From Actinomycetes bacterium (lineage in GTDB: Bacteria > Actinomycetota > Acidimicrobiia > Spongiisociales > JAHEDJ01): 64,000 nucleotides of DNA. A program made the translations under genes and the position numbers. The notes beneath the pieces are model-generated. The model saw only the letters and a program-made list of their open reading frames with translations. It was not told where the DNA came from and made no database searches. Location: the NCBI GenBank assembly GCA_024641245.1, contig JAHEDK010000002.1, positions 167,136 through 231,135 of the forward strand, given 5' to 3'. Below, piece by piece: positions 33,989 to 51,707 of this stretch. Each line of letters opens with the position of its first letter. Position 1 is the stretch's first letter.

Positions 33989-34110
33989 TCGGCGACGGCC
34001 CGGAGTCACAACTTCAAGGGCCGTTGGACCCTGTGCCGCGTTGACCTTTGGCAATACGGTGAAGGGCGGAGAGGAACAACTCAACTACATCGGGAGCCGC
34101 TGTGGCAGGA

Positions 34111-34584
34111 ATGAGCCGTCGGACTTTCTTGAGTCGCGCCACCGCGTCGATTGTCGGCGGGATCGGCGCGCTGATGGGCATCCCCACGGTTGCCTATCTC
34201 ATTTCTCCTGCCAAGGCTCGCGGTGGTCTTGGAGTCGAGGCGATCCCGCTCGGGCCTACCAACAAAGTGCCAATCGGGGAACCCACCCTCTTCAAAGCAA
34301 CCATCGAGCGCAAGACCGGATGGGTCACGCAGGCCGAAGAGCTCGCCTTCTACGTCTTCACAGAAGACGGGCGCAACTTCACGGCACTGTCCAACGTTTG
34401 CACGCACCTTGGCTGCCGGGTGCGGTGGGTCGGCAACGAGAAACAGTTCTTCTGCCCTTGCCACAATGCCGTCTTCACCGAAACCGGGAAAGTGGTTTCG
34501 GGCCCACCGCCCAGAGCCCTAGACCAGTACGAGCTGTCGGTTGAAGGTGACCAGTTGTTCGTCGTCGGGAAGGTCGAAGCATGA
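34111..34584 (+). CDS. Rieske [2Fe-2S] iron-sulfur subunit of a cytochrome b6-type complex (module 1), Tat-targeted
   Basis: MSRRTFLSRA twin-arginine signal. CTHLGC ... CPCHNAVF Rieske boxes. An alternative GTG lies 9 nt upstream (34102). Confidence 0.85.
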   Translation: MSRRTFLSRATASIVGGIGALMGIPTVAYLISPAKARGGLGVEAIPLGPTNKVPIGEPTLFKATIERKTGWVTQAEELAFYVFTEDGRNFTALSNVCTHLGCRVRWVGNEKQFFCPCHNAVFTETGKVVSGPPPRALDQYELSVEGDQLFVVGKVEA

Positions 34585-35270
34585 TCCAGAAGCTCAGTGC
34601 TTGGTTCGAAGAGCGGATGGGATGGAAGCCGATCTGGACGGCACTGGCGCTCCGCAACATCCCCAAGGTCAACTGGCTGTACACGCTGGGCAGCGCCACG
34701 CTCCTCGTCACAGTGAACCAGATTCTGACCGGCATCCTCCTCACCATCTACTACGTCCCCAGCCCTCAGGATGCCTACAACAGCGTTGCCTTCATAACGA
34801 ACGAGATCACTGCCGGCTGGCTCATCAGAGGGCTGCATCATTGGGGTGCCAGTGCGATGGTCGTCCTGGCCGGACTCCACATGCTGCGGGTGGTCTTCCA
34901 CGGCGCCTATAAGTTCCCCCGCGAAATCACCTGGTTCACCGGACTCGGCCTCCTGGCCGTGACGATGGCCTTCGGATTCACCGGGTACTTGCTGCCGTGG
35001 GATCAGAAGGCTTACTGGGCTACCACGGTGGGTACCCGAATGCTGGAGGTGACACCCGTCATCGGTGATTGGCTGCTCCGGATCGCCCGCGGTGGGGAAG
35101 AGCTGTCGGCCGTGACGCTCACCCGGTTCTACGGAACCCATGTATGGGTGCTCCCGTCGGTGCTCCTGCTACTCCTGGGTATCCACCTCTTTCTGGTCGT
35201 CCGCGTCGGCATCAGCGCACCTCCGACACCCAAGGAGACAGACGAGAAGCCCAAAGTGTGGTTCGAATAA
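34581..35270 (+). CDS. Cytochrome b6-like (N-terminal four-helix di-heme b subunit), module 1
   Basis: ATG overlaps the Rieske stop (ATGA). His pairs on helix B (HHWGASAMVVLAGLH) and helix D (THVWVLPSVLLLLLGIH). Confidence 0.85.
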   Translation: MIQKLSAWFEERMGWKPIWTALALRNIPKVNWLYTLGSATLLVTVNQILTGILLTIYYVPSPQDAYNSVAFITNEITAGWLIRGLHHWGASAMVVLAGLHMLRVVFHGAYKFPREITWFTGLGLLAVTMAFGFTGYLLPWDQKAYWATTVGTRMLEVTPVIGDWLLRIARGGEELSAVTLTRFYGTHVWVLPSVLLLLLGIHLFLVVRVGISAPPTPKETDEKPKVWFE

Positions 35271-37669
35271 TGAAACGCGAAGAACGCTCCAAATACCTCG
35301 AGGAGTACGCAGAGGACAAGAAGAAGGGCATCCCGTTCTTCCCGGACGCCGTGTTCAAGGACGTCCTGGTTGCATTGATCGTGTTGATCATTCTCATCGG
35401 CCTCGCCTACTTCGCAGGCGCCCCGCTCGAAGAACGTGCGAATCCATCCGACAGCGACTACACACCTCGACCGGAGTGGTACTTCCTCTGGCTCTTCCAA
35501 CTGCTCAAGTACTTTCCGGGCAACCTCGAGTTCGTCGGCGTCATCCTCCTGCCTGCCCTCGGATTCGCCATCCTCTTCGCCATGCCGTACCTGGACAGGA
35601 CCAAGCTCCGTCACTTCCGCAACCGCAGTTGGGTGATGGCATCAACCGGCGTCGCCGTGGTAGCCATGGGGTTTCTCACAGTCCAATCCATCAGGGAGAC
35701 CCCGGCGCCGGCCGACGTGAGCGGCACCATCAACGCCGCCGTTCTCTTCACCGAGAATTGCTCCGTATGCCACGGCACATCGATCGATGTCCCGACCGGG
35801 ATAAACCTGCATGAGACGATTGCCGGGGGTCACGAGGGGATGCCGGCCTTCGCAGCCACTCTGTCGACCGATGAAATCGATGCCCTCGCAGGATTCCTGG
35901 TCTCTCCGCAGGGAGGGGCGATATTCACCGCCAACTGCGCGGCATGCCACGATTCGAGTGACCTCGCCGCCGCCACCCCGTTCCAGCTCCAGGACGCCCT
36001 GAATCAAGGCACCGCCTACGCGCCGCATGATGGACTCGACATACCCGACTGGTCCGAGGTCCTCTTCGGCCAGGATCGAACCGCGCTCCTCAACTTCTTG
36101 CTTGCTCCGGACGGCCAGCGCCTCTACACGCTCTACTGCTCCGAATGTCACGGAACCTCGATCAGCTGGGAAGGGGAACGAGACGAACTCGAAGCGCTCA
36201 TCCGCCAGGGCGGCAACCACCTCGAGATGACCCAGTGGAGGGACGTGCTGCCGGAGGACCAGATCACCGAACTCGCTCTGTTCGTCGTCGAACCATCCAC
36301 GGCTCCCGGGGGCGAGCAACTGTTTGCACAGCACTGCTCGAGTTGTCACGGCGTGCGGGTGCCGAGCGCTCCCGACATAGAAACCGCCTACAACATCATC
36401 GCCGACGGTGCAGAGCACCGATCGATGCCTGTCTGGGGCGACGTTCTCACCGAGGAGCAGCTAACCGCACTCACAACCTACACGCTCGAAGCCAGTCGCG
36501 GCACACCGGTCATCGTCGGCCAGCAACTGTTCGGTCAATTGTGCTCGTCGTGCCACGGTGACTTCGGTGAAGGCGGCCCGAACCCCGCCGACCCCATCAG
36601 AATCATCCCTCCGATCAGTACGGCGAGCTATTTGGAGACCCGGGACGACGCCACGTTGCGCGCCATCATCTCAAAGGGTCAGTCGGACCAGGGCATGTCG
36701 CCTTTCCTGGAGAGCGAAGGTGGACCGCTGACCGAGGACGAGGTGAATGCCGTGGTTGCGTTCCTCCGTTCGTGGGAATCGGATCCGCCGGTCGATTTGC
36801 CGCCCGATCTTGCCCGTGGACCCGTCGCGGGTGGAAGCGTGCAGGTGTATGCGGCGTTCTGCGCCCAATGCCACGGAGCAGATGGGGCAGGCGGCCCCGA
36901 TTTGGTCGGTCCTTCCTTGACCTCGGCAGAATTCCAGGATTCCTTCACCGATGAGCAACTGCACGAGGCCATCGACCTCGGCCATGCTGCTACTTCGATG
37001 ATCGCCTGGGGCGAGGTCCTCACCGCCGATCAGATCCAGGGACTCGTCGACCACATCCGCTCGCTGGGCGGACGCGGTACCCTGCAGACGATCGTCTACG
37101 AACGCGACATTGCTCCGATCTTCCAGGCGTCTTGCGCCGGTTGCCACGGGTCGTCGGGGGGTTGGGATGCATCCACCATGGAGTCCGTGATCGGCAGCGG
37201 AAGCAGCGGGCCGGCCGTCGTCGCCGGCGATCCCGACGGGAGTCATCTCGTGCAGCGCCTTCGTGGCGAGGGCAACTTGATGCCCCCGGCCGGAGCGCTG
37301 CCGGACAACCAACTCGATCTGATCGTGCAATGGATTGCCGGGGGAGCAACCGCCGAAGTGACAACAGGCGACGCGCAATCCGGCGGCGGCGACATCGGTG
37401 ATTACACGTGGACGAAGGATGTCCAGCCGATCCTGCAGGCCAGTTGCGCGGCCTGCCACGGATCGTCCGGGGGTTGGTACGCGGGGACGTACAGCTCCAC
37501 GATCAACAGCGGCGACAGCGGTCCGGCCGTCGTCCCTGGGAATGCCGACGACAGTTCGATGATCCAACGACTGCTCGGCAACGGCAACCTGATGCCGCCG
37601 GGAGCTCCGCTTTCGGAAGAACAGATCGCCGTCCTGATCTACTGGGTCAACAGCGGCGCCAAGGAATAG
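35270..37669 (+). CDS. Cytochrome b subunit IV-like domain fused to an octaheme c-type cytochrome (two C-terminal PSCyt1-like domains)
   Basis: TAATG overlap with cyt b6. Three TM helices with Qo-site PEWYF motif, then 8 CxxCH (CSVCH, CAACH, CSECH, CSSCH, CSSCH, CAQCH, CAGCH, CAACH). The last two sit in CxxCHG..GG-containing repeats. Confidence 0.8.
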   Translation: MKREERSKYLEEYAEDKKKGIPFFPDAVFKDVLVALIVLIILIGLAYFAGAPLEERANPSDSDYTPRPEWYFLWLFQLLKYFPGNLEFVGVILLPALGFAILFAMPYLDRTKLRHFRNRSWVMASTGVAVVAMGFLTVQSIRETPAPADVSGTINAAVLFTENCSVCHGTSIDVPTGINLHETIAGGHEGMPAFAATLSTDEIDALAGFLVSPQGGAIFTANCAACHDSSDLAAATPFQLQDALNQGTAYAPHDGLDIPDWSEVLFGQDRTALLNFLLAPDGQRLYTLYCSECHGTSISWEGERDELEALIRQGGNHLEMTQWRDVLPEDQITELALFVVEPSTAPGGEQLFAQHCSSCHGVRVPSAPDIETAYNIIADGAEHRSMPVWGDVLTEEQLTALTTYTLEASRGTPVIVGQQLFGQLCSSCHGDFGEGGPNPADPIRIIPPISTASYLETRDDATLRAIISKGQSDQGMSPFLESEGGPLTEDEVNAVVAFLRSWESDPPVDLPPDLARGPVAGGSVQVYAAFCAQCHGADGAGGPDLVGPSLTSAEFQDSFTDEQLHEAIDLGHAATSMIAWGEVLTADQIQGLVDHIRSLGGRGTLQTIVYERDIAPIFQASCAGCHGSSGGWDASTMESVIGSGSSGPAVVAGDPDGSHLVQRLRGEGNLMPPAGALPDNQLDLIVQWIAGGATAEVTTGDAQSGGGDIGDYTWTKDVQPILQASCAACHGSSGGWYAGTYSSTINSGDSGPAVVPGNADDSSMIQRLLGNGNLMPPGAPLSEEQIAVLIYWVNSGAKE

Positions 37670-37811
37670 TCAATACGAAGCACTCAACACGAGGTGCGGC
37701 GTTCGGCCCGTCGCGATTCGACACTCCGTCGGGTCGGGTTGCTACTCTCCACCGCACCCCGGCGCCGAGCCGGGAGTCGTACAGTAGGGTGTCGACGACG
37801 GAGCATCTGGT

Positions 37812-39608
37812 ATGGAGAAACTTCACTTCTTCGACGAGAACATCCCCTGTCTCGCCGCCTGTCCGGTCAACACGAATGCCGGCATGTACGTTGCCGCCAT
37901 CGCAGACGGACAGGATGAACTGGCCTATCTAACCGCTCGCCTCCCCAACCCGTTCGCCTCCGTCTGCGGTCGGGTTTGTGCGGCGCCATGCGAGGACGCC
38001 TGTCGGCGCGGCGAAATCGACAAGCCCATCGCCATCCGGGCGCTCAAGCGATTCGTCACCGATCAATTCGGCGTCGAATCCGGCATGGATACCTACCGGC
38101 AGGTCGCCGCCCCTGCTCTCGAGTCGCGATCACAAAGCGTCGGGATTGTCGGAGGGGGCCCGGCCGGCCTGGCCGCCGCCCACGACCTCCGCCGCCTCGG
38201 CTACGGCGTCACGCTGTACGAAGCCACCGGTCAGCTCGGCGGCATGATGCTGCTGGGGATCCCCGAGTACCGCCTTGATCGATCCCTCCTGGCGGCGGAG
38301 ATCAAGGCCATCACCGACCTGGGCGTCGAGGTTCGGTTGAACACGAAACTCGGCGATGGCATCACGCTCGATGACCTCCGCCGGCAGCACGATGCCCTAT
38401 TCGTGGCCATCGGGGCGACCCTCGGACGCGGACTCGACCTCGAAGGCCACGACGCAGACGGGGTGTTGAAGGCGATCGAGTACCTGATCAACGCCAACCA
38501 GGGGTTCGCAACCGACGTCGGTCAGAAGGTGGTCGTAATCGGTGGCGGCGACGTGGCGATGGATGCAGCAAGGACCGCGCTACGAGCTGCAACCTACGAT
38601 GAGATCGCCCGCCGCCATGCCGAATACGACGAAGAGGACGGGCGCTCATCCATGACGGAAGCCCTCGACGTGGCTCGCACGGCTGCCCGGACTGGTGCTC
38701 AGGACATAACCATCATGTCACTCGAGGCCAAACACGAGATGCCGGCGTCGGAGTTCGAGGTCGAAGAGGCCGAGCACGAGGACATCAAGTTTGTCAACCG
38801 GCGCGGTCCCGCCCGGATACTCACCGCCGATGGCAAGGTCACCGGCATCGAGACGATCGGGGTCACGCGCGTTTTCGACGAGAACGGCCGGTTCTCCCCT
38901 GAATTCGACGATGCAGATCGGCTGACGCTGGAGGCAGACACCATCATCATGGCTATCGGCCAGGCGATCGATGTTGAGGCACTGGGAGCGAACGGCCCTG
39001 AGTTGAGTCCTCGCAAGACAATCCAAGTGGGTGAGGACAGCCTGGCGACTTCGCTTCCGATGGTATGGGCCGGCGGCGATGCAGCCAGGGGCCCGCGCAC
39101 TCTCATCGATGCGATCGCAGACGGCCGGATTGCGGCCCGTGAGATCCACGAGGCGTTTGGCGGCAGCTTCGCCGAGCAGGATACCGGAACCATGGTGCAA
39201 CTGGACCAGTTCCACCGTCTCGACGACATCTACGACCGGGTCCCCCGGGTCGCCGTGCCCACGCTGCCGACGGACCGGCGCATCGGTCTGGCAGAAGTCG
39301 AAACAGGGTTCACCGTCGAAGAGGCCAGGTGTGAGGCACAGAGGTGTCTGCGCTGCTTCGCCAACATCCTGCTCGATACCGACATTTGTGTTTTATGCGC
39401 GCTGTGCGCCGACGTCTGCCCGCTCGACCTGATTTCGCTGGTTCCCTCGGAGGACATTCACCCAGACGAGCCGGGTGGCACGGCGTTAATGTTGAACGAG
39501 CAAAGCTGCATCCGTTGCGCGCTGTGTATTGAGCGATGCCCGACAGATGCACTGTCGATGGGACTGTGGACCGGAGTGGGAGTGCCGAAATTGGGAGCAC
39601 CGGTATGA
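37812..39608 (+). CDS. GltD-like NAD(P)H-dependent FAD/iron-sulfur oxidoreductase with C-terminal 2x[4Fe-4S] ferredoxin domain
   Basis: N-terminal Cys cluster (CLAACPVNTN, CGRVCAAPCEDAC). Two dinucleotide-binding GxGxxG motifs (VGGGPAGLAAA, VIGGGDVAMDAA). C-terminal CLRCF...CVLCALCADVCP and CIRCALCIERCP. Confidence 0.8.
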   Translation: MEKLHFFDENIPCLAACPVNTNAGMYVAAIADGQDELAYLTARLPNPFASVCGRVCAAPCEDACRRGEIDKPIAIRALKRFVTDQFGVESGMDTYRQVAAPALESRSQSVGIVGGGPAGLAAAHDLRRLGYGVTLYEATGQLGGMMLLGIPEYRLDRSLLAAEIKAITDLGVEVRLNTKLGDGITLDDLRRQHDALFVAIGATLGRGLDLEGHDADGVLKAIEYLINANQGFATDVGQKVVVIGGGDVAMDAARTALRAATYDEIARRHAEYDEEDGRSSMTEALDVARTAARTGAQDITIMSLEAKHEMPASEFEVEEAEHEDIKFVNRRGPARILTADGKVTGIETIGVTRVFDENGRFSPEFDDADRLTLEADTIIMAIGQAIDVEALGANGPELSPRKTIQVGEDSLATSLPMVWAGGDAARGPRTLIDAIADGRIAAREIHEAFGGSFAEQDTGTMVQLDQFHRLDDIYDRVPRVAVPTLPTDRRIGLAEVETGFTVEEARCEAQRCLRCFANILLDTDICVLCALCADVCPLDLISLVPSEDIHPDEPGGTALMLNEQSCIRCALCIERCPTDALSMGLWTGVGVPKLGAPV

Positions 39609-40342
39609 CATTGGGCCAACGAATCCGCGAAAGCACGATAGGTCGTTCGATCTGGCGCGCCACCGACCGAACCACCGAACGCGACCAGGCGGCCGGTCAC
39701 TGGGCGAACTTCTTTCTGCACATCTACCCGGTGAAAGTGCGCAAGAAGGAGATCACGTTCCGCTATTCCTGGTATCTAGGTGTGGCGTCGGTGGTCCTGT
39801 TCGGATCGCTGATCGTTTCGGGCATCTACCTGATGTTCTTCTACGTCCCGTCGCCTGCCCAGGCCTACGGCGACATCCTCAACCTGCAAACGCGGGTCGC
39901 GTTCGGACAGTACATCCGCAACGTGCACCGCTGGTCGGCTCACCTCATGGTGCTGGTGGTGGCCGCGCACATGGCCCGGGTGTTTTATCGAGGGGCATAC
40001 AAGAAACCCCGCGAATTCAACTGGGGTATCGGCGTGATCCTCCTCGTGCTCACGCTGCTCCTTTCGTTCACCGGCTACCTGCTCCCCTGGGACCAGCTCG
40101 CCTACTGGGCGGTCACGGTCGGCACCGAGATGGCCGCCTTCGTCCCGCTGATCGGGGACACCGTCAAGGAAATGATGCTGGGTGGGCCGGTGGTTGCTTC
40201 GTCGACGCTGCTGCGGTTCTACGTTCTGCATGTCGCCGTTCTGCCCACGGCTGTCGTTCTCCTCATCACAATCCATATGTGGAGATGGCGCAAAGACAGC
40301 ATGCTCGACGCGGCGAAGGAGGGTGTTGATGTCGACGCCTAG
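39605..40342 (+). CDS. Cytochrome b6-like di-heme b subunit, module 2
   Basis: ATGA overlap with the GltD-like gene. Heme-ligand His pairs (HRWSAHLMVLVVAAH; LHVAVLPTAVVLLITIH). PWDQLAYW motif. Confidence 0.85.
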   Translation: MTLGQRIRESTIGRSIWRATDRTTERDQAAGHWANFFLHIYPVKVRKKEITFRYSWYLGVASVVLFGSLIVSGIYLMFFYVPSPAQAYGDILNLQTRVAFGQYIRNVHRWSAHLMVLVVAAHMARVFYRGAYKKPREFNWGIGVILLVLTLLLSFTGYLLPWDQLAYWAVTVGTEMAAFVPLIGDTVKEMMLGGPVVASSTLLRFYVLHVAVLPTAVVLLITIHMWRWRKDSMLDAAKEGVDVDA

Positions 40343-40865
40343 ACCAGATCAGGAAAATCCTGAGATCGTCGCCGGACAACGGGTGCTCGGGGTTGTTCCA
40401 GGCAAGCCGCCGGGCGGCGACCGCAAGGTTCTGAGCGAGCAGGAACCGGTCATGGTCTGGCCGCACCTACTCGTCCGCCACGGGGTGGCGGCGCTGGTGG
40501 TCATCGCCGTCGTTCTGGTGCTTGCCATATTCTTCGATGCCCCGCTGCGTGAGATCGCCAACCCCACGCTGACGCCCAACCCGGAAAAGGCCCCCTGGTA
40601 TTTCGCGGCGCTCCAGGAGCTGCTCTCGATGTTCCATCCGCTGGTGGCCGGTGTGCTGGTCCCGGGCGCCATCGTCCTCGGGCTCTTCGCGCTTCCGTAT
40701 GTGGATCGGACTTCGACGATCGAGCCGCGGTTCCGCAAGGTGGCGGTGGCGACGTTCACGATCTTCATGGTCGTGTGGATAGTCCTGACGGTTATCGGAT
40801 TCGCCTTCCGCGGCCCCAACTGGGGTTGGGTGTGGCCATGGCAAGAGTGGTACGGAGAGCTATGA
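40329..40865 (+). CDS. Cytochrome b subunit IV-like protein, module 2 (variant Qo motif APWY)
   Basis: Start overlaps the cyt b6 stop. Three TM helices. TPNPEKAPWYF replaces the PEWY box. Confidence 0.75.
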   Translation: MSTPRPDQENPEIVAGQRVLGVVPGKPPGGDRKVLSEQEPVMVWPHLLVRHGVAALVVIAVVLVLAIFFDAPLREIANPTLTPNPEKAPWYFAALQELLSMFHPLVAGVLVPGAIVLGLFALPYVDRTSTIEPRFRKVAVATFTIFMVVWIVLTVIGFAFRGPNWGWVWPWQEWYGEL

Positions 40866-41368
40866 GCAACGGAATCGGTCGGAGAGAATTCCTATCCCGG
40901 GCCTGGAAGTGGGGTGCCGCCCTCATCGGTGTCGCCGGCGGTTGGACCACGTGGGATATCCTGCAGCCCCGGGTCACCGGAGGCTTTGGTGGCGTCATCA
41001 AGACCAAGGCAGCCGACACAGTGCCGGACACCAACGTCGAATCCATCCGGGCCGCCAGAACCTACCTGACGAAGATCGACGGGCAGGTTGTAGCCCTCTC
41101 CGAGAAATGCCCGCACCTCGGTTGCCGGGTGCCGTGGTGTGATTCGTCCGGACAGTTCGAGTGCCCGTGCCACGGCTCGGTCTTCAACCGGGCGGGCGAG
41201 TACCGCGCAGGGCCCGCTCCCCGCGGAATGGACCGCTACGAGTTCGAGACGATCGACGGCATCGTCTACGTAGACACCGGAGCACCGGTATCCGGGCCGG
41301 CAATCGGTGTGGAGACCCTCAACGAACCCGTACGAGGGCCATCGTGTGAGGACAGCTCCCATGGGTGA
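40862..41368 (+). CDS. Rieske [2Fe-2S] protein, module 2, Tat-targeted
   Basis: ATGA overlap. RREFLSRA signal. CPHLGC ... CPCHGSVF boxes. Confidence 0.85.
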   Translation: MSNGIGRREFLSRAWKWGAALIGVAGGWTTWDILQPRVTGGFGGVIKTKAADTVPDTNVESIRAARTYLTKIDGQVVALSEKCPHLGCRVPWCDSSGQFECPCHGSVFNRAGEYRAGPAPRGMDRYEFETIDGIVYVDTGAPVSGPAIGVETLNEPVRGPSCEDSSHG

Positions 41369-41825
41369 GCGTCCGGTTGACCAGGAACTCGAACAGTCGA
41401 CCGTCAGATGGATGCAGGCCGGACTGGCCCTGATGGTCGTCCTGGTGCTGGCGTTTCCCGCCTACCGGCTCCTCGAACCTACCAACCGCGAAGAAGCACG
41501 CGACCTCTTGACGGAAGAACTCGCCGTCCAGGGCGAAGAGCTATTCGCGGGGCAGTGCGCCTCCTGTCACGGCGAAAAGGGGCTGAATGGACCGATCGGT
41601 CCGTCGCTCAACTCGAAGCAGTTCCTGGAGGCGGCCACCGACAGCCAGATCATCAGCCTCGTCTCGGTCGGCGTCCCGGGCTCTCAGATGGGCGCCTACT
41701 CGATCGACTTCGGAGGCCCACTGACACTCGAGCAAATCACCGGCATCGCAACCTATCTGCGCTCGCTGGAGAAAGACGCCCCGGACAATCCTGACTGGCG
41801 AGCAGTAGTAACGCCGGGGAGCTAG
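41361..41825 (+). CDS. Membrane-anchored monoheme c-type cytochrome (c6/c553-like)
   Basis: Start overlaps the Rieske stop. N-terminal TM helix. Single CASCHG heme site. Confidence 0.7.
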   Translation: MGERPVDQELEQSTVRWMQAGLALMVVLVLAFPAYRLLEPTNREEARDLLTEELAVQGEELFAGQCASCHGEKGLNGPIGPSLNSKQFLEAATDSQIISLVSVGVPGSQMGAYSIDFGGPLTLEQITGIATYLRSLEKDAPDNPDWRAVVTPGS

Positions 41826-41948: not shown

Positions 41949-42371
41949 CTACGCGTCCGTCGGGACCTCGTAGGGGTGCCCTTCGTCCTCGGGCGCTTGG
42001 TACTGCTCGTCGTGTTTGACGACCAGCTGGTCGCTGCGGAAGACGTCACCGTCCCAGGCGCCTTCGACGATCGCACCGACGCCTTCGCGGAACAGTTCCG
42101 GTGGGGCTCCCTGGTGCACGATGTGCACTTCATGGGCACCGTCGGACACGGTGAACTCGACTCCATCCGAGGTGGCAACCAGTGTCCCGACTTCGACCTG
42201 ACCGCCGAGCCGGAACCGCTCACCATCGGGGAACTGAGCCCTCTGCTCGATAGCTTCGTTGGGGGTCAAGTAGTAGACGAGGTTCTCGCCGAGGCTGAGA
42301 AACACCATCCATCCGATGATCACAACGATCGCTCCGATGGCGGGAAGTACGAACCAGCGATATCGAGTCAT
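41949..42371 (-). CDS. ccmE: Cytochrome c maturation heme chaperone CcmE
   Basis: N-terminal anchor, OB-fold, C-terminal VVKHDEQY heme-binding motif. Confidence 0.85.
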   Translation of the reverse strand: MTRYRWFVLPAIGAIVVIIGWMVFLSLGENLVYYLTPNEAIEQRAQFPDGERFRLGGQVEVGTLVATSDGVEFTVSDGAHEVHIVHQGAPPELFREGVGAIVEGAWDGDVFRSDQLVVKHDEQYQAPEDEGHPYEVPTDA

Positions 42372-42372
42372 G

Positions 42373-42486
42373 TCAGCCCTCCACCCGGCGGCGGACGCTG
42401 CGCAGGCGCACAGTCAAGAACACCGCATATCCGATCATGAAGCCGTACACCACCGTGTAGGCAAAAACGACCCATCCGTTAGACAT
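42373..42486 (-). CDS. ccmD: Heme exporter protein CcmD (37 aa, single TM)
   Basis: Not in the ORF track. Translation is MSNGWVVFAYTVVYGFMIGYAVFLTVRLRSVRRRVEG. Its start overlaps the ccmC end, and its stop abuts the ccmE start. Confidence 0.55.
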   Translation of the reverse strand: MSNGWVVFAYTVVYGFMIGYAVFLTVRLRSVRRRVEG

Positions 42487-43204
42487 CTCGCACCTTCTCG
42501 AGGTTGGGAGCCGTGATGGCGGCACCGGCGGGCGTGGCATCAGCGGCGGCGGATTGTTCTTCGAGTTGTTCCTCGCCCCTGGCGATGGCCGTCTTGACGC
42601 TCATGAAGGCGAGATAGACCACGGTGAACGCTCCAACGTTGCTGAGCAACGCCAGCAGGATCTCTCCATCGATCGGAGAATCCGGTCGCACCACCGTGAT
42701 CCCCTGGTGCAACGTGCGAACGATGATCACCGAAACGTAGGACAGCGGCACGAGGAAGAAGGCCACGATGCCCAGCACCGCGGATCTCGTCGCCCGCATG
42801 GCCGGGTCGGGAATGCTGCGGCGCAAAGCCAGGTAACCGAGGTAGACGAAGAACATGAGGGCCGTCGTCATCATGCGGGCATCGCCCCAGTCCCAGAACG
42901 TCCCCCACACCGGGTAACCCCAGATCATGCCGGTCATGAGCGCCAGCGCGGTGAAGAACACGCCGACCGAGACGCTGGACTCGGCGATTCGATCGTAAAC
43001 GGGCTTGCGTCTCGCCAGCCACAGGATCGAGGCGGCGAACGTCACAAGAAACGAGAGGTAGGCAAGCCACGCCGAAGGTACGTGCACGTACATGATGCGG
43101 GTGTAGTCGCCCTGCAACTGATCGAGCGGCGCCTGGCCACCGAAGTAGAAGCCGACCAGCACCGCTGCCAGTGCGATCAACCCGAGTATTCGATGTCTAT
43201 TCAA
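42479..43204 (-). CDS. ccmC: Heme exporter protein CcmC
   Basis: WWD domain (GYPVWGTFWDWGD) and conserved His. Confidence 0.85.
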   Translation of the reverse strand: MNRHRILGLIALAAVLVGFYFGGQAPLDQLQGDYTRIMYVHVPSAWLAYLSFLVTFAASILWLARRKPVYDRIAESSVSVGVFFTALALMTGMIWGYPVWGTFWDWGDARMMTTALMFFVYLGYLALRRSIPDPAMRATRSAVLGIVAFFLVPLSYVSVIIVRTLHQGITVVRPDSPIDGEILLALLSNVGAFTVVYLAFMSVKTAIARGEEQLEEQSAAADATPAGAAITAPNLEKVRDV

Positions 43205-43881
43205 CGTGAGGCCTCCTCGAGGAATCGGGCGGTCAGCACACCTACCACTGCCAGCCCGAGTACCACGGCAAGTAGCAGAAGGATGGGAGTGAGGATACTT
43301 GACTTCTGAGCCAACGCTTCATACGTCTGTGATGCTCCGACGAGCAGCGGCAACGCCAGCGGTGCCACCAGCAGCGGTGCCAGCGTGTTACGAGAGCGCA
43401 GACCGGCCGTGATACCGGAGGCGAGCGTACCGATGAGCGCCAGGCCGACGGCCATCAGCAGAAGGACCAAAATCAGGATCGCCCACCCCTCTACCGGGTC
43501 CGGGTTGTAGAGGATGATCGTGGCGGGCGCAAGCACTCCTTCGAACACGAGCAACAGGAGGACGCTCGCCACAACCCTGCCCGCGAACTGCGCGGCCGGG
43601 TCCACGCCGAGCAACACCATCATCTCGCGATTGGCCGAACTCTCTGTGGCCGACTGGCGGAACGTGACCAGCATCCCGAACAGCAGGGTCACGACCCAGA
43701 ACATGCCCGGTCCGATCGAGGCGATGAGTGGACGGTCGGTCCCGATCGCCAGCGGGATGAGCAGCAGCGCAACCGCTCCAAACGGGATCGTGATGTTCAG
43801 GACCTCGCCGGTCCGTCCTTCGACCCGCAGATCCTTCAACCCGATCTCATATGCCTGGCCCCAGAACGACGGACCGCTCAT
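43201..43881 (-). CDS. ccmB: Heme exporter permease CcmB
   Basis: Six-TM ABC-2-type permease in a ccm context. Overlaps ccmC and ccmA by 4 nt each. Confidence 0.8.
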   Translation of the reverse strand: MSGPSFWGQAYEIGLKDLRVEGRTGEVLNITIPFGAVALLLIPLAIGTDRPLIASIGPGMFWVVTLLFGMLVTFRQSATESSANREMMVLLGVDPAAQFAGRVVASVLLLLVFEGVLAPATIILYNPDPVEGWAILILVLLLMAVGLALIGTLASGITAGLRSRNTLAPLLVAPLALPLLVGASQTYEALAQKSSILTPILLLLAVVLGLAVVGVLTARFLEEASR

Positions 43882-44534
43882 GATGAGCTCCCCGCGATCA
43901 CGATCCCACCCGTCAGCTCATAGGTCGATTGCACCAGCGGCAGCATGCGATCGAGTTCGTGGGACACGAAGACGGCGGCGCCACCACGGGAACGGACGTT
44001 CTCGACAACTGCGTCGACGAGTTGTCCGGCCTCTCGATCTAGTCCGGCGTGGGCCTCATCGAGCAGCAGTAGGTCGGGCCTGGTGAGAATCACCCTGGCG
44101 AACTCAACTCGCCGCTGCATACCATGCGACGACTGCTCCGCCCGCCGGTGCTTCGCCCCACCCAGCCCGACCACGTCGAGCATCTCATCTACCCGCTCGT
44201 CAGTGTGGCCCGACAACCGGGCGACGAAGGCGAGATTCTCACGCAGCGTCAACTGCGGGTAGAGCGCCGGTTGATGGCCGATCAGCGCGATCCGGCGCCG
44301 GATCGCAAACGCCGTCGCTTCGCCCATCTCGGTGCCGAACACCGCCACCGAGCCCTCCGTCGGTCGCAGCAACGTGGCCAGCACCCGGAGCAGCGTCGAC
44401 TTTCCCGAACCATTCGGCCCAACGATCCCGGCTGCCTCCCCGGACGGTACCGCCAGCTCCACGCCCTTCAATACCGGCACCCGGCCGTATCGAACGGCGA
44501 CGCCGTGCAGCTGCACTGTGGGAGGTGTGGACAT
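43878..44534 (-). CDS. ccmA: Heme exporter ATP-binding protein CcmA
   Basis: Walker A (GPNGSGKST), ABC signature (SHGMQRR), Walker B (LLLLDEA). Start at MSTPPTVQL. Confidence 0.8.
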   Translation of the reverse strand: MSTPPTVQLHGVAVRYGRVPVLKGVELAVPSGEAAGIVGPNGSGKSTLLRVLATLLRPTEGSVAVFGTEMGEATAFAIRRRIALIGHQPALYPQLTLRENLAFVARLSGHTDERVDEMLDVVGLGGAKHRRAEQSSHGMQRRVEFARVILTRPDLLLLDEAHAGLDREAGQLVDAVVENVRSRGGAAVFVSHELDRMLPLVQSTYELTGGIVIAGSSS

Positions 44535-44804
44535 GACAGACGAGTGTACGCACGCAGCTTCGGGCGCCGAAACGCGACCCCGGATAAACACCACCCGTTC
44601 TCTCCCTTTCGCCACCTTTTCAGGGTTTTATGGCGGGTTTCAACCCAGGCAGGGCCCAAGTGCCCCAGGGCGCGAGGACTTTGCGCTGTTGGTGTGTTTC
44701 CGATATACCCGTATCCTCTGCAATGAGAAACGGGGGACCGACCCTGAATCGCCGCCGGAACGGCTCATTCACACGGTGATCCCCATGGAGGAAGGCACAG
44801 CAAA

Positions 44805-46844: not shown

Positions 46845-47250
46845 TTCGATTCGCAAGATCGCGGCGGCGGTGGTGACTATCGGCCTGGCGGTTGTCGTCG
46901 TAATCGGCCTCATCCAGGGCGACCGAACCGATGAAGATCGCGCCCGGTCCATCGGCTCCAGAGTGAAGTGTCCCGTTTGCCAGGGCGTAGCCATTGCCGA
47001 TTCTCCTTCGGAAACTGCCAGAGCGATGATGGACGTCGTCGAAGAGCGAATCGCAGACGGGTGGTCGGACAGACAGATCATCGACTACTTCGCGGAGCGC
47101 TACACCGACAGCATCGTCATCGACCCGCCCTTCAGCGGGAATACGCTGCTCGTCTGGCTGCTGCCGATCCTGGCAGTAGTCGCAGGCTTCTTCATGATCT
47201 TCTCCCGGCGCAAGACGCCGGTGCCAAAACCCGATGAGGTGAAACAGTGA
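46837..47250 (+). CDS. ccmH: Cytochrome c-type biogenesis protein CcmH
   Basis: GTG overlaps the ccmF stop (GTGTCTGA). CPVCQG motif, then a TM anchor. Confidence 0.75.
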   Translation: MSDSIRKIAAAVVTIGLAVVVVIGLIQGDRTDEDRARSIGSRVKCPVCQGVAIADSPSETARAMMDVVEERIADGWSDRQIIDYFAERYTDSIVIDPPFSGNTLLVWLLPILAVVAGFFMIFSRRKTPVPKPDEVKQ

Positions 47251-48080
47251 GCAACTTCAACCAGGAGTCATACGATCGGGCGGTCGCCCGCAAGGAACTG
47301 GCCTTGACCGATCTCGAAGAGCTGGCCCAGCAGGTGGACGACGGTGAGATCGACGCGCCCACCGCGGCAGGACTCCGGAGCGGCTACGAGGCTGAACTCG
47401 GCGCGGCCGAAGCCGAACTGGCCAGACTCGGTCCACCGCCCACTCCCAAGAAGTCGCCCGGTCAAGCGTCGACCAAACGTGCGCCGAGCGAGAACGGACG
47501 GCCGGCCCGGAAGTCGAGCGACTTGAATACTCGTCTGCTGGTCGGCGCCGGCATTCTCATCGTCGCCCTCGTCGTGATTCTCATCTCGGTCCAGAATTCG
47601 GCGCAGCCGGATCCGGCCGCGATGGGCACCCAGGTGACGACGGCAAGCGGCGAGGACCCCTGCGCGGAGCTGGCCGACGCGTTGACCAGTCACTCCGACA
47701 ACGGCTTTCGTCTCGCACTGGCCGACTGCTACGCAGACGTCGGAAACGCCATGTCGGCGATCGAGCACTACCGGGCCGTCGCCGATGCCGAAGGTGCCGC
47801 CGACGGCGAGGTCGCACGGGCAAACGTGGGACTCGGCTTCCTCAACCTTCAAATCGGTGAGCTCGCCAAGGCCGCCGACTACATGCGCGTGGCGCTCGAG
47901 CGCGACGCCGCCAACGTCGAAGCTCAATACTTCCTGGGCATGATGCTCGTCTACGACCTCGGCGATCCGGCCGCAGGAGCCCCATATCTCGAGTCGGTAC
48001 TCGCAACTCCCGACCTGCCGGAGACGGTGATCCTCGAAATCCAGGCAGCGCTCGATGTCGCGGCGGGCGAGGGCTCATGA
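47247..48080 (+). CDS. CcmI/CycH-like TPR-containing cytochrome c biogenesis accessory protein
   Basis: ATGA-type overlap with ccmH. N-terminal coiled region, a TM helix, C-terminal TPR-like helices. Confidence 0.45.
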   Translation: MSNFNQESYDRAVARKELALTDLEELAQQVDDGEIDAPTAAGLRSGYEAELGAAEAELARLGPPPTPKKSPGQASTKRAPSENGRPARKSSDLNTRLLVGAGILIVALVVILISVQNSAQPDPAAMGTQVTTASGEDPCAELADALTSHSDNGFRLALADCYADVGNAMSAIEHYRAVADAEGAADGEVARANVGLGFLNLQIGELAKAADYMRVALERDAANVEAQYFLGMMLVYDLGDPAAGAPYLESVLATPDLPETVILEIQAALDVAAGEGS

Positions 48081-51698: not shown

Positions 51699-51707
51699 CG
51701 TGACAGA

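What the first reader, a model, noticed from the sequence alone, without database searches (positions are those of the whole stretch)
34102..41825. Operon of two tandem Rieske/cyt b6/subunit-IV modules flanking a GltD-like NAD(P)H FeS flavoprotein and a subunit IV-octaheme c fusion
Seen in sequence: eight consecutive plus-strand genes whose starts overlap the preceding stops (ATGA, TAATG). The order is Rieske(Tat) - cyt b6 - SUIV::octaheme c - GltD-like flavoprotein - cyt b6 - SUIV - Rieske(Tat) - monoheme cyt c. Both b6 subunits keep the four heme-ligand His. The GltD-like gene lies inside the coupled string, between the c-heme fusion and the second cyt b6. It has the N-terminal Cys cluster, two dinucleotide folds and two C-terminal 4Fe-4S ferredoxin motifs. 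Established knowledge: Firmicutes bc/b6c complexes fuse SUIV to a monoheme c. Anammox Planctomycetes have Rieske/cyt b complexes that include an NAD(P)H oxidoreductase subunit and multiheme c, which has been proposed to bifurcate quinol electrons. Inference: this actinobacterial-type operon may encode a quinol:cytochrome c / NAD(P)+ module, possibly two complexes sharing a flavoprotein. It could split quinol electrons between a high-potential multiheme c branch and NAD(P)H formation, as in reverse electron transport during metal oxidation or EET. I am not aware of this arrangement having been described outside Planctomycetes.
Basis: partly seen in the sequence, partly recalled or inferred. Interest (0 to 1): 0.9.

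Follow-up and report, generated by a model that had tools for sequence, protein, structure and literature searches.

The report
Flavoprotein-linked Rieske/cytochrome b6 complex, Acidimicrobiia
An uncultured actinobacterium (class Acidimicrobiia) carries two different quinol-oxidising Rieske/cytochrome b6 gene sets side by side, and one always travels with an iron-sulfur flavoprotein, as in anammox bacteria; this linkage also occurs in other phyla and its function is still untested.

Summary
The eight genes and their domains are real. However, they form two gene strings, not one. A conserved 142-nt spacer separates Rieske1-b6-SUIV::octahaem c from flavoprotein(OR)-b6-SUIV-Rieske2-monohaem c.

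The OR string is a conserved five-gene unit. It was complete in 17 of 17 Acidimicrobiia loci with enough sequence. The upstream octahaem module is adjacent only in a narrow clade of about 90% OR identity. Most other Acidimicrobiia instead have a cytochrome c and a divergent COX2-COX1-SCO1 oxidase cluster there.

Module 2 is homologous to the anammox Kustd1480-85-type complex: OR 37.5% identical over full length, b6 46%, and Rieske2 best matches the Kuenenia Rieske structures. It is a distinct subtype. It has no haem c_n cysteine, a 3-TM SUIV, a monohaem c, and an OR with an insertion and an invariant Leu-Glu where Nfn-type and anammox ORs have Tyr-Arg-Arg.

The same OR subtype sits next to Rieske/cyt b genes in Acidobacteriia and Nitrospinota (5 of 5 loci examined). 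Published cyt b phylogenomics had already noted this co-occurrence. "Unknown outside Planctomycetes" is therefore wrong, and "two complexes sharing one flavoprotein" is unsupported.

Quinol-driven NAD+ reduction is the favoured mechanism but is unproven. NADH input is a serious rival.

The parts
34102..34584 (+). Rieske 1 (160 aa, Tat signal SRRTFLS). Box II reads CPCHNAVF, the low-potential-type Ala/Phe pair.
   Evidence: Pfam PF00355 1e-12. Best PDB hits are b6f PetC proteins. Box II motif.
34581..35270 (+). Cytochrome b6 no. 1 (229 aa). It is a canonical b6 type with His86/100/187/202, and has TLGS in place of the CxGG haem-c_n motif.
   Evidence: PF00033 6.8e-50. 183 bits to Synechocystis b6 over the full length. 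Groups with cyanobacterial b6 in an NJ tree.
35270..37669 (+). Subunit IV (3 TM, PEWY motif) fused to eight c-type haem domains (6 class I plus 2 PSCyt1; 799 aa).
   Evidence: PF00032, PF13442 (x7), PF07635 (x2). 8 CxxCH motifs and 3 TM segments. TAATG start.
37670..37811 (+). Non-coding spacer. Its last ~95 nt are a conserved leader with an invariant 11-bp inverted repeat and TGCTACTCT (extended -10-like). It is a likely promoter/operator or 5'UTR of the second unit.
   Evidence: gap. (conservation in 5 loci). (fold). No Rfam match. The simple sigma-70 scan was negative.
37812..39608 (+). Cytoplasmic FeS flavoprotein (OR, 598 aa). It is NfnB/GltD-like with FAD and NAD(P) folds and 16 conserved Cys (enough for four [4Fe-4S] clusters). 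It carries a family-specific insertion (about residues 259-295) and invariant Leu304-Glu305.
   Evidence: Pfam. PDB sequence and fold hits to NfnABC/StnC/NfnB/GltD. 37.5% identity over full length to the anammox-type OR. Alignments. Cys positions.
39605..40342 (+). Cytochrome b6 no. 2 (245 aa), ExtP/'subfamily G'-like. It has the four His ligands (108/122/209/224), an N-terminal extension with His39, and YLGV instead of CxGG (no haem c_n Cys).
   Evidence: Pfam. NCBIfam ExtP 260.5 bits against a cut-off of 290. 46% identity to the anammox b6. Alignments and tree.
40329..40865 (+). Subunit IV no. 2 (178 aa, 3 TM). It has APWY in place of PEWY and lacks the two extra C-terminal helices of the anammox, Latescibacterota and Tectomicrobia SUIV.
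   Evidence: PF00032 5.5e-12. Alignments. TM scan.
40862..41368 (+). Rieske 2 (Tat motif GRREFLS; an alternative start lies at 40838). Box II reads CPCHGSVF, the same Ser/Phe pair as Kustd1480.
   Evidence: PF00355. Best PDB hits are the Kuenenia Rieske structures 9rk3/9rk4. Box II is conserved in all OR-linked Rieske proteins.
41361..41825 (+). Membrane-anchored monohaem class I cytochrome c (154 aa).
   Evidence: PF13442/PF00034. 1 CxxCH and an N-terminal TM segment. Conserved as the fifth gene of the unit.
41949..48685 (.). Context: System I cytochrome c maturation genes (CcmE, C, B, A on the minus strand; CcmF, H, a TPR protein and a thioredoxin-like CcmG on the plus strand).
   Evidence: Pfam. 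Syntenic in L001.
48795..64000 (+). Context: five multihaem c genes (5, 10, 11, 10 and 9 CxxCH), an Rrf2 regulator, an NHL-repeat protein and a b561-type membrane cytochrome b. Together they look like a putative extracellular electron transfer island.
   Evidence: Pfam. Haem counts.

Best explanation
The locus encodes two independent menaquinol-oxidising Rieske/cytochrome b6 complexes.

Module 1 (Rieske1-b6-SUIV::octahaem c) is a canonical b6c-type quinol:cytochrome c oxidoreductase. Its fused chain of eight haem domains passes electrons outward towards the multihaem cytochromes encoded downstream.

Module 2 (OR-b6-SUIV-Rieske2-cyt c) is the Acidimicrobiia version of the flavoprotein-bearing Rieske/cyt b complexes first seen in anammox bacteria.

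Shown here: the five genes form a conserved unit; all subunits are homologous to the anammox-type cluster; and the OR has FAD and NAD folds plus Cys for four [4Fe-4S] clusters and no signal peptide.

Inferred: the OR docks on the cytoplasmic face of the b6 dimer. Quinol oxidised at the Qo site sends one electron to the high-potential Rieske2 and on to cytochrome c. From there it reaches a terminal acceptor: a neighbouring haem-copper oxidase in most Acidimicrobiia, or multihaem cytochromes in this lineage. The second, low-potential electron crosses the b haems and the four FeS clusters to FAD, which reduces NAD+. The nucleotide is probably NAD rather than NADP, given Glu305.

This would give reverse electron flow from quinol to NAD(H) without using proton-motive force.
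For: 1. Unit conservation. OR->b6->SUIV->Rieske->c was complete in 17 of 17 Acidimicrobiia loci with enough downstream sequence, and b6 followed the OR in 20 of 20. The same holds in L035 and L039.

2. Homology to an anammox-type cluster (L025: Rieske-b6-OR-SUIV-936-aa multihaem c). OR is 37.5% identical over residues 5-583 (1.5e-115), b6_2 46% and SUIV_2 39%. By contrast b6_1 is only 34% identical.

3. Rieske2's best solved relatives are the two Kuenenia Rieske proteins from the flavoprotein-containing complexes. Those proteins have measured potentials of +303 and +335 mV, which fit the NAD(P)H-generation scheme (PMC12954380).

4. Every OR-linked Rieske has CPCHG(S/T)xF, the Ser/Phe pattern of Kustd1480. 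Every module-1 Rieske has Ala at the Ser position. One organism therefore encodes a predicted high-potential and a low-potential Rieske.

5. b6_2 keeps the His (His39) that aligns with the His proposed to bind an extra interfacial haem b in the anammox models.

6. The OR has 16 conserved Cys. Its nearest solved folds are the NAD(P)H/FAD modules of bifurcating NfnABC/Stn enzymes.

7. OR homologues of this subtype lie next to Rieske/cyt b genes in 5 of 5 loci examined from other phyla, including chemolithoautotroph-type Nitrospinota.

8. The OR-linked b6 proteins of this subtype have all lost the haem-c_n cysteine. This is consistent with a remodelled N-side.
Against: - No experiment exists for this subtype. 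Even for anammox the mechanism is a proposal supported by Rieske potentials and AlphaFold3 models only (PMC12954380).
- The invariant Leu-Glu in place of Tyr-Arg-Arg points to NADH, the catabolic carrier.
- The hosts are mostly heterotroph-like Acidimicrobiia and Acidobacteriia.
- In most Acidimicrobiia the unit sits in an island with cyt c, COX1, COX2 and SCO1. That island reads just as well as a complete NADH-to-O2 chain with the OR as the input module.
- His39 is also conserved in relatives that lack an OR (Latescibacterota, Tectomicrobia), so it is not OR-specific.
- Docking of the OR on b6 could not be modelled here. My single-chain model is only moderate (pLDDT 67).
- Rieske potentials are inferred from two residues only.
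Confidence: 0.42

Rival explanations
1. Module 2 is an NADH-oxidising respiratory complex. The OR is an electron-input module (functionally NDH-2-like). It feeds NADH electrons through four FeS clusters into haem b_N and the N-side quinone site. The Rieske/b6 core then runs a Q-cycle to cytochrome c and on to the neighbouring oxidase. The result is an integrated NADH:cytochrome c oxidoreductase.
For: - Glu305 replaces the second Arg of the 2'-phosphate-binding YRR motif and is invariant in 25 sequences. This suggests NADH.
- In most Acidimicrobiia the unit is embedded in an island encoding cyt c, COX1, COX2, SCO1 and PCuAC-like proteins. That is a complete chain from dehydrogenase to oxidase.
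- Electron flow in this direction is downhill and needs no special tuning.
- Dibrova et al. view short cyt b as ancestral membrane anchors of cytoplasmic dehydrogenases (PMC5600118).
Against: - The Ser-containing, Kustd1480-like Rieske box, contrasting with the Ala-type Rieske1 in the same genome, is not needed for this function.
- Hauser et al. argue the same route would waste energy compared with complex I.
- The module also occurs in anammox and Nitrospinota, which need reverse electron flow.
- Loss of haem c_n removes the b6-type N-side quinone-reduction cofactor.
Confidence: 0.3
2. The complex is a reversible redox valve. Depending on the NADH/NAD+ ratio, the quinone-pool state and acceptor availability (for example hypoxia), it either draws electrons from NADH or returns them to NAD+, balancing the two pools.
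For: GltD/Nfn-type flavoproteins are reversible in vitro (established knowledge). A DevS/DevR-like GAF sensor kinase and response regulators lie directly downstream of the unit in L039. The neighbouring oxidase has a short 172-181-aa subunit II, which resembles B-family oxidases used at low O2; this rests on my own knowledge and was not tested.
Against: Purely inferential. No regulatory link was tested, and the oxidase family was not determined. NCBIfam gave only sub-threshold CtaD/CoxB hits.
Confidence: 0.15
3. The flavoprotein works on its own as a soluble GltD/NfnB/sulfide-dehydrogenase-like enzyme and is merely co-located with the Rieske/b6 genes.
For: It has no membrane segment of its own. 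Its nearest solved relatives are soluble enzymes.
Against: - There is a 4-nt ATGA overlap with b6_2.
- b6 followed the OR in 20 of 20 Acidimicrobiia loci, and 5 of 5 loci from other phyla carry a Rieske gene next to the OR.
- No gltB or nfnA partner was found in the window or in the loci examined.
- It scores below every GltD equivalog cut-off.
- In Kuenenia the homologous subunits are reported to co-migrate with the Rieske/cyt b complex (cited in PMC12954380).
Confidence: 0.05
4. One reading: the eight genes form one operon encoding two Rieske/b6 complexes that share the single flavoprotein.
For: The eight genes are contiguous and on the same strand, and they stay together in 6 related contigs.
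Against: - A 142-nt spacer with a conserved promoter-like leader lies in front of the OR gene.
- The OR unit occurs without module 1 in all more distant Acidimicrobiia, and module 1 is replaced there by cyt c plus an oxidase cluster.
- b6_1 is a canonical b6 lacking the N-terminal extension and His39 of the OR-linked type.
Confidence: 0.05

Closest known systems
Kuenenia stuttgartiensis Rieske/cyt b complexes Kustd1480-1485 and Kuste4569-4574 (anammox R/b complexes with an NAD(P) oxidoreductase subunit; Kartal 2013, de Almeida 2016, Hauser 2025 PMC12954380)
   Same: - Rieske, split b6 and SUIV together with a cytoplasmic GltD/NfnB-like FeS flavoprotein with four Cys clusters, all in one gene cluster.
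- The OR is homologous over its full length, and b6 is 46% identical.
- The Rieske has the Ser/Phe box of Kustd1480.
- The His aligned with the proposed extra haem-b ligand is present.
   Different: - Monohaem c instead of a hexa- or octahaem c.
- No CxGG cysteine, so no haem c_n.
- SUIV has 3 rather than 5 TM helices.
- b6 lacks the loop insertion before helix D.
- The OR has a 30-50-aa insertion and Leu-Glu instead of Tyr-Arg-Arg.
- Gene order differs.
- In most hosts it is linked to a haem-copper oxidase, that is, an aerobic context.
Cytochrome b 'subfamily G' clusters with large NAD(P)-binding FeS oxidoreductases (Dibrova et al. 2013, 2017; PMC5600118)
   Same: A short cyt b co-occurring with a large NAD(P)-binding, Cys-rich oxidoreductase in taxonomically diverse bacteria. 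My Acidobacteriia and Nitrospinota loci show the same linkage and the same OR subtype.
   Different: Membership of b6_2 in subfamily G is inferred only from its clustering with anammox, Acidobacteriia and Nitrospinota sequences. No reference sequence such as DAMO_0768 was available. Acidimicrobiia did not appear in a word search of the paper's main text; its tree figures and supplement were not held.
Geobacter ExtO/ExtP/ExtQ (Rieske, cyt b and membrane protein of the extHIJKLMNOPQS cluster; PMC5877670)
   Same: b6_2 and SUIV_2 hit the NCBIfam ExtP and ExtQ models best (260.5 and 61.8 bits). Both are Rieske/short cyt b/SUIV complexes associated with multihaem cytochromes.
   Different: Both scores fall below the curated cut-offs (290 and 150). 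According to the paper the Ext cluster has no flavoprotein. It is periplasm/outer-membrane oriented in a diderm.
NfnB / NfnABC / StnC and GltD (NAD(P)H-FAD-2x[4Fe-4S] modules)
   Same: Fer4_20 plus two dinucleotide folds. The best sequence and fold matches are 9bov_A, 9n5u_A, 8oh5_C, 5jca_L, 4ylf_B and 2vdc_G.
   Different: An extra C-terminal 2x[4Fe-4S] ferredoxin domain, an insertion in the NAD domain, Leu-Glu replacing Tyr-Arg-Arg, and no NfnA or GltB partner gene. It scores below all GltD equivalog cut-offs.
Firmicute b6c complex QcrABC (SUIV fused to a monohaem c) and cyanobacterial b6f; comparison for module 1
   Same: Rieske, four-helix b6 with four His, and SUIV with PEWY. As in Bacillus QcrC (established knowledge), SUIV is fused to c-type haem. 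b6_1 scores 183 bits to Synechocystis b6.
   Different: Eight haem domains instead of one. TLGS instead of CxGG, the motif Dibrova 2017 reports for Rubrobacter and Conexibacter short cyt b. Close relatives of the fusion turned up only in the same narrow clade.

Membership tests
Anammox-type Rieske/cyt b complex with NAD(P) oxidoreductase subunit | Rieske, four-helix cyt b6 and SUIV encoded in one cluster | tested here: met
   Pfam. Conserved order in 17 of 17 loci.
Anammox-type Rieske/cyt b complex with NAD(P) oxidoreductase subunit | GltD/NfnB-like FeS flavoprotein with about four Cys clusters encoded inside the cluster and homologous to the anammox subunit | tested here: met
   37.5% identity over residues 5-583 to the OR of L025, E 1.5e-115. 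16 conserved Cys.
Anammox-type Rieske/cyt b complex with NAD(P) oxidoreductase subunit | Hexa- or octahaem cytochrome c subunit in place of cyt f/c1 | tested here: not met
   Module 2 has one CxxCH in a 154-aa cytochrome. The octahaem protein belongs to module 1.
Anammox-type Rieske/cyt b complex with NAD(P) oxidoreductase subunit | CxGG motif for covalent haem c_n in cyt b6 | tested here: not met
   b6_2 has YLGV where the anammox, Latescibacterota and Tectomicrobia proteins have CMGG.
Anammox-type Rieske/cyt b complex with NAD(P) oxidoreductase subunit | SUIV with five transmembrane helices | tested here: not met
   SUIV_2 is 178 aa and ends at WQEWYGEL. It lacks the roughly 100-aa C-terminal extension.
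Anammox-type Rieske/cyt b complex with NAD(P) oxidoreductase subunit | N-terminal His of cyt b proposed to ligate an extra interfacial haem b (Kustd1481 His62 / Kuste4571 His43) | tested here: met
   b6_2 His39 aligns with that His. The His is also present in OR-less relatives, so it is not diagnostic.
Anammox-type Rieske/cyt b complex with NAD(P) oxidoreductase subunit | High-potential Rieske (> +300 mV) despite a menaquinol substrate | tested here: inconclusive
   The Ser/Phe box is identical in type to Kustd1480. The potential itself cannot be computed.
Anammox-type Rieske/cyt b complex with NAD(P) oxidoreductase subunit | Physical association of the flavoprotein with the membrane subunits | not testable with these tools
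   No multimer modelling or proteomics is available. Only gene coupling could be assessed (ATGA overlap).
Glutamate synthase small subunit (GltD) | Scores above the curated GltD model cut-offs | tested here: not met
   TIGR01317 201.6 against 447.7; TIGR01318 226.8 against 483; TIGR01316 279.7 against 471.8.
Glutamate synthase small subunit (GltD) | Adjacent or partnered gltB large subunit | tested here: not met
   No Glu_synthase or GATase gene was found among the window ORFs scanned (some short ORFs were not scanned). None lies next to the OR in any of the loci examined. The rest of the genome is not visible.
NfnAB / NfnABC transhydrogenase | NfnB-like module with a Tyr-Arg-Arg NADPH site and an NfnA-type partner | tested here: not met
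   Fold and sequence are closest to NfnABC/Stn, but Ser-Leu-Glu replaces Tyr-Arg-Arg and there is no nfnA-like neighbour.
ExtP/ExtQ (NCBIfam NF040969 / NF040970) | Score at or above the curated cut-off | tested here: not met
   260.5 against 290 and 61.8 against 150. These are the best-scoring models but remain sub-threshold.
Canonical cytochrome b6 (b6f/b6c) | Four bis-His ligands for haems b_p and b_n | tested here: met
   Both b6 proteins met this in alignments to Synechocystis b6.
Firmicute-type b6c (QcrC = SUIV fused to cytochrome c) | SUIV fused to a single c-type haem domain | tested here: not met
   The fusion is present, but with eight CxxCH.

The most novel reading that the evidence does not exclude
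A Rieske/b6 complex uses Qo-site bifurcation to push one quinol electron uphill onto NAD+ through a docked FeS flavoprotein. This proton-motive-force-independent reverse electron transport would not be an anammox oddity. It would be a widespread module of aerobic or microaerobic Acidimicrobiia, Acidobacteriia and Nitrospinota, driven by O2 reduction through a dedicated neighbouring oxidase, or in this lineage by extracellular electron transfer. The NADH-type, haem-c_n-less subtype described here would be a second mechanistic class of such complexes.
Probability: 0.3. Interest if true: 0.85.

Novelty: new variant of a known kind. Interest (0 to 1): 0.55.

Why it matters
Whether Rieske/cyt b complexes can use their intrinsic quinol bifurcation to make NAD(P)H has been open since it was proposed for anammox bacteria. 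Those organisms are slow-growing and not genetically tractable.

The same flavoprotein linkage exists as a conserved five-gene unit in common soil, freshwater and marine lineages (Acidimicrobiia, Acidobacteriia, Nitrospinota). Several features differ in diagnostic ways:
- no haem c_n;
- an NADH-type nucleotide site;
- a monohaem c;
- a dedicated oxidase next door.

This gives new systems and clear sequence contrasts for testing the idea. One such contrast is a high-potential-type and a low-potential-type Rieske in a single genome.

If the complex works in the NAD+-reducing direction, it changes how reverse electron flow and redox balancing are budgeted in abundant environmental bacteria. If it works in the NADH-oxidising direction, it is an unrecognised fused complex I/III-type entry point to respiration.

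Tried and rejected
1. A single eight-gene operon: rejected because of the 142-nt gap, the conserved leader and the independent distribution of the two halves.

2. A bona fide GltD: rejected (synteny).

3. The conserved leader as a known RNA: no Rfam hit. RNAalifold gave hairpins, but with 5 near-identical sequences there is no usable covariation. The simple sigma-70 scan found nothing.

4. Retrieving the exact Kuenenia proteins by searching with a fragment of the 9rk3 sequence returned only 86-91% relatives. I used an anammox-type metagenome locus (L025) as a stand-in. Its assignment to anammox rests on this similarity, on the Kustd1480-85-like gene content and on the neighbouring ammonium transporter.

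5. Dibrova 2013 (PMC3839093) and the supplement of the 2017 paper are not held. Subfamily G membership could therefore not be tested against reference sequences.

6. The single-chain AlphaFold2 model of the OR is only moderate (pLDDT 67; FeS regions below 50). It was used only to confirm the fold and the position of strand 298-302 before Leu304-Glu305.

7. The metagenome scan for the SUIV::octahaem fusion found only two true relatives, both from the same clade. That scan reaches close relatives only, so rarity beyond the clade is not shown.

8. Literature searches for this arrangement in Acidimicrobiia or Acidobacteria found nothing specific.

9. The listing of cluster members gave no organism names for the large contigs.

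Full report
**1. Observation**

ORF listing and translation and Pfam scans confirm eight plus-strand genes between 34102 and 41825:

| Gene | Coordinates | Notes |
|---|---|---|
| Rieske1 | 34102-34584 | Tat motif SRRTFLS |
| cyt b6_1 | 34581-35270 | |
| SUIV::eight-haem c | 35270-37669 | PF00032 + 7x PF13442 + 2x PF07635; eight CxxCH, |
| flavoprotein (OR) | 37812-39608 | GltD/NfnB-like; Fer4_20, Pyr_redox_2, NAD_binding_8, two Fer4 |
| cyt b6_2 | 39605-40342 | |
| SUIV_2 | 40329-40865 | |
| Rieske2 | 40862 or 40838-41368 | Tat motif GRREFLS |
| monohaem c | 41361-41825 | membrane-anchored |

Both b6 proteins keep the four haem-ligand histidines when aligned to Synechocystis b6. Junction sequences show overlaps at six of the seven junctions.

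The exception is important. The OR reading frame has no possible start before 37812, so a 142-nt non-coding gap lies between the octahaem gene and the OR gene. The OR therefore heads a second translationally coupled string. It is not embedded in a single one.

**2. Organism and conservation**

The OR has hundreds of relatives at 70% identity or more, and where a source names them they are Acidimicrobiia MAGs. A scan of one genome per species returned 24 loci. Most are labelled Acidimicrobiia or Actinomycetota; one bin is labelled Gemmatimonadales and three only as bacterium. I mapped the eight window proteins onto them by tblastn.

- The order OR-b6_2-SUIV_2-Rieske2-cyt c is present in every locus with enough downstream sequence: 17 of 17 complete units, and b6 follows the OR in 20 of 20. 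OR identity ranges from 66 to 91%.
- Module 1 (Rieske1-b6_1-SUIV::c8) is adjacent only in the closest relatives: L001, L002, L006 and L012, plus L035 and L036 from metagenomes.
- In the more distant Acidimicrobiia the gene directly upstream of the OR is a cytochrome c of 240-330 aa. Divergent from it lie COX2, COX1, a 756-819-aa fusion of a b6-like cytochrome b with two [4Fe-4S] motifs and an FlpD/MvhD-like domain, and SCO1. The same layout occurs in a 4.16-Mb contig, there followed by a GAF sensor kinase and GerE-type response regulators.
- None of these oxidase genes is in the window or in L001, L002 or L012. Those loci instead share module 1 upstream and a System I cytochrome c maturation cluster downstream.

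The last ~95 nt of the 142-nt spacer are nearly invariant among the five loci of this clade. They contain an 11-bp inverted repeat followed by TGCTACTCT, an extended -10-like element. No Rfam family matches. I infer two transcription units, but this was not tested.

**3. The two modules differ**

*Module 1 is canonical b6-type.*
- b6_1 aligns end to end with cyanobacterial b6 (183 bits) and groups with it in a distance tree.
- Its SUIV carries PEWY.
- Its Rieske best matches b6f PetC proteins.
- It has TLGS instead of the CxGG haem-c_n motif. Dibrova et al. 2017 report this replacement for the short cyt b of Rubrobacter and Conexibacter.

*Module 2 belongs to a different lineage.*
- b6_2 has an N-terminal extension with the motif FLHIYPVKVR. 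It shares this with cyt b from an anammox-type locus and from Latescibacterota, Tectomicrobia, Acidobacteriia and Nitrospinota.
- Its best NCBIfam models are Geobacter ExtP and ExtQ, just below cut-off (PMC5877670).
- SUIV_2 has APWY instead of PEWY.
- Rieske2's best solved relatives are the two Kuenenia Rieske proteins, 9rk3 and 9rk4. These come from the flavoprotein-containing anammox complexes (PMC12954380).

**4. Direct comparison with an anammox-type cluster**

I used a fragment of the 9rk3 sequence to find relatives and then their contigs. This gave three reference loci:
- an anammox-type locus (L025): Rieske, b6, OR (568 aa), SUIV (280 aa) and a 936-aa multihaem c, next to an ammonium transporter. 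This is the Kustd1480-1485 layout.
- two OR-less relatives, from Latescibacterota and Tectomicrobia: Rieske-b6-SUIV-multihaem c.

Against L025:

| Window protein | Identity to L025 partner |
|---|---|
| OR | 37.5% over residues 5-583, E 1.5e-115 |
| b6_2 | 46% |
| SUIV_2 | 39% |
| b6_1 | 34% |

Module 2 is therefore homologous, subunit by subunit, to the anammox-type complex.

His39 of b6_2 aligns with the histidine that Hauser et al. propose as ligand of an additional interfacial haem b (Kustd1481 His62, Kuste4571 His43). That histidine is also present in the OR-less relatives, so it does not mark OR binding.

**5. The window complex is a distinct subtype**

Compared with the anammox, Latescibacterota and Tectomicrobia proteins, b6_2 and its Acidimicrobiia, Acidobacteriia and Nitrospinota counterparts differ in three ways:
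- They lack the CxGG cysteine (YLGV, YLGS, YLGG).
- They lack the loop insertion before helix D.
- They pair with a SUIV that ends after the third helix instead of having five.

The ORs split the same way.
- The anammox-type OR has IIYRRT after the second Rossmann strand, as do the Nfn-type enzymes.
- The Acidimicrobiia, Acidobacteriia and Nitrospinota ORs have a 30-50-residue insertion. They also have Ser/Cys-Leu-Glu at that position, with Leu304 and Glu305 invariant in 25 sequences.
- In the model, strand 298-302 precedes these residues.
- By the usual rule for two-dinucleotide-fold flavoproteins (my knowledge, not tested), Arg-to-Glu at a 2'-phosphate contact suggests NADH rather than NADPH.

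The cytochrome c partner is monohaem, not multihaem.

**6. The OR itself**

- Its best solved relatives, by both sequence and fold, are the NAD(P)H/FAD/[4Fe-4S] modules of the electron-bifurcating NfnABC and StnABC enzymes. NfnB, GltD and DPD follow.
- It scores below all curated GltD cut-offs.
- It has an extra C-terminal 2x[4Fe-4S] domain.
- No gltB or nfnA partner was found in the scanned window ORFs or next to the OR in any locus examined.
- Sixteen conserved cysteines would build four [4Fe-4S] clusters. This matches the four-cluster wire in the anammox models.

**7. Distribution beyond Acidimicrobiia**

An exhaustive search of 1.84 billion cluster representatives found 3,522 relatives at E <= 1e-30. 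Many are ~600-650-aa proteins matching over the full length at 40-50% identity. The clusters nearest the anammox OR rank at about 90-110.

A profile of 20 such representatives retrieved mainly Acidobacteriia proteins and one Nitrospinota protein. All five contexts I looked up carry Rieske/cyt b genes next to the OR:
- three Acidobacteriia-like loci: cupredoxin-like gene where upstream sequence is available, then OR, Rieske, b6, SUIV, a ~710-aa multihaem c and a cyt c;
- a Nitrospinota locus: EB_dh-type haem protein, OR, long cyt b, Rieske and a multi-domain c-type cytochrome;
- an unclassified bacterium: molybdopterin enzyme, FeS protein, NrfD, cyt c, OR and Rieske.

This matches the statement in Dibrova et al. 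2017 that subfamily G short cyt b co-occur with NAD(P)-binding, Cys-rich oxidoreductases in some planctomycetes "and in many other cases". The linkage is therefore known at the comparative-genomics level. I found no paper describing it in Acidimicrobiia.

**8. Mechanism**

*What is shown.* Module 2 is a conserved five-gene unit. It encodes a periplasm-facing Rieske and cyt c, a dihaem b6 with SUIV, and a cytoplasmic FAD/NAD/4x[4Fe-4S] protein. All are homologous to the anammox-type cluster.

*What is inferred.* The OR docks on the N-side of b6 and exchanges electrons with haem b_N.

*Direction of electron flow.* I favour the Kartal/Hauser scheme: Qo-site bifurcation, with the high-potential electron going to Rieske2 and cyt c, and the low-potential electron going through the b haems and FeS clusters to FAD and NAD+. 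My reasons:
- The only measurements in the family, Kuenenia Rieske potentials of +303 and +335 mV with menaquinone, fit this scheme.
- Every OR-linked Rieske in my set has the Ser(Thr)/Phe box of Kustd1480, while every module-1 Rieske has Ala at the Ser position. This is a within-genome contrast between a predicted high-potential and a low-potential Rieske.
- The haem-c_n cofactor of the b6-type N-side quinone site is lost in exactly this OR-linked subtype.
- The module occurs in lineages that need reverse electron flow (anammox, Nitrospinota).

*The serious rival* is the opposite direction, with NADH feeding the b haems and the complex acting as an integrated NADH:cytochrome c oxidoreductase. 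Three points favour it: the NADH-type Glu305, the mostly heterotroph-like hosts, and an island in most Acidimicrobiia that encodes everything from the flavoprotein to a haem-copper oxidase.

I cannot discriminate between these computationally. My estimates are about 0.42 for NAD+ reduction, 0.30 for NADH input and 0.15 for a reversible valve.

In the window's clade the oxidase island is replaced by module 1. The window and L001 also have a Ccm System I cluster downstream. The window itself further carries five multihaem cytochromes (5, 10, 11, 10 and 9 haems), an NHL-repeat protein and a b561-type cytochrome. This is inference from context only.

**9. Verdict**

- It is wrong about a shared flavoprotein and about absence outside Planctomycetes.
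- The locus is a new variant of a known but functionally unresolved kind of complex. The tandem juxtaposition with a SUIV::octahaem b6c module is specific to one clade.
- Interest is moderate to good (0.55). It offers sharper, testable contrasts and more accessible host lineages for an open bioenergetic question, but it is not a new category.

Noticed in passing
window 41949-48685: A complete System I cytochrome c maturation set: CcmE, C, B, A on the minus strand, and CcmF, CcmH, a TPR protein and a thioredoxin-like CcmG on the plus strand. As far as I know, Actinobacteria normally use System II, so this may have been acquired together with the multihaem cytochromes. It is syntenic in L001.
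   Followed up: partly
window 48795-64000: Five multihaem c-type cytochrome genes (5, 10, 11, 10 and 9 CxxCH), an Rrf2 regulator (55916-56362), an NHL-repeat membrane protein (60489-61655) and a b561/Ni_hydr_CYTB-type cytochrome b running off the window end. Together they look like an extracellular electron transfer island in a monoderm actinobacterium.
   Followed up: partly
window 51797-52912 (- strand): A gene with AbiEi antitoxin C-terminal and MTES_1575 nuclease-like domains sits between the multihaem cytochrome genes. It may be a mobile or defence remnant inside the island.
   Followed up: no
L010 2394-4664 (-); also L004, L009, L013, L019, L020 and L039 4205-6526: A 756-819-aa fusion of a b6-like four-helix cytochrome b, two [4Fe-4S] motifs and an FlpD/MvhD-like domain lies next to COX1-COX2-SCO1. 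It is a second membrane b-cytochrome with a cytoplasmic FeS module and no known function. It may correspond to the large cyt b fusions that Dibrova et al. call subfamily H.
   Followed up: partly
L039 14505-17461: A GAF-GAF-HisKA_3 sensor kinase and two GerE-type response regulators (DevS/DevR-like) lie directly downstream of the OR-b6-SUIV-Rieske-c unit. This hints at hypoxia or redox control of the island.
   Followed up: no
window 37716-37811: A conserved leader upstream of the OR gene. It has an invariant 11-bp inverted repeat (CGATTCGAC...GTCGGGTCG) followed by TGCTACTCT and then a variable GC hairpin. It could be an operator overlapping a promoter, or a 5'UTR structure. An Rrf2 regulator gene is in the window, and another lies upstream of the Acidobacteriia cluster (L029).
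   Followed up: partly
window ~41822-41855: A 14-nt tandem duplication (GCTAGTCGCGGGTT, about 2.3 copies) starts at the stop codon of the monohaem cytochrome c gene.
   Followed up: no
L040 1-6894: In an unclassified bacterium the OR-Rieske pair follows a molybdopterin oxidoreductase, an FeS protein, an NrfD-type membrane protein and a cytochrome c. This amounts to a Psr/ACIII-like quinone module fused in gene order with the flavoprotein-bearing Rieske cluster.
   Followed up: no
L029 6358-6969 and L031 6384-6989: In the two Acidobacteriia loci with upstream sequence, a cupredoxin-like (Copper-bind) protein with a CarboxypepD_reg-like domain lies immediately upstream of the OR gene. It is a possible blue-copper electron acceptor for the complex.
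   Followed up: no
L003 (CAXMRC010000091.1): This contig carries the typical Acidimicrobiia OR unit at 77% identity, but its bin is labelled 'uncultured Gemmatimonadales'. This is probably a binning or labelling error rather than lateral transfer.
   Followed up: no
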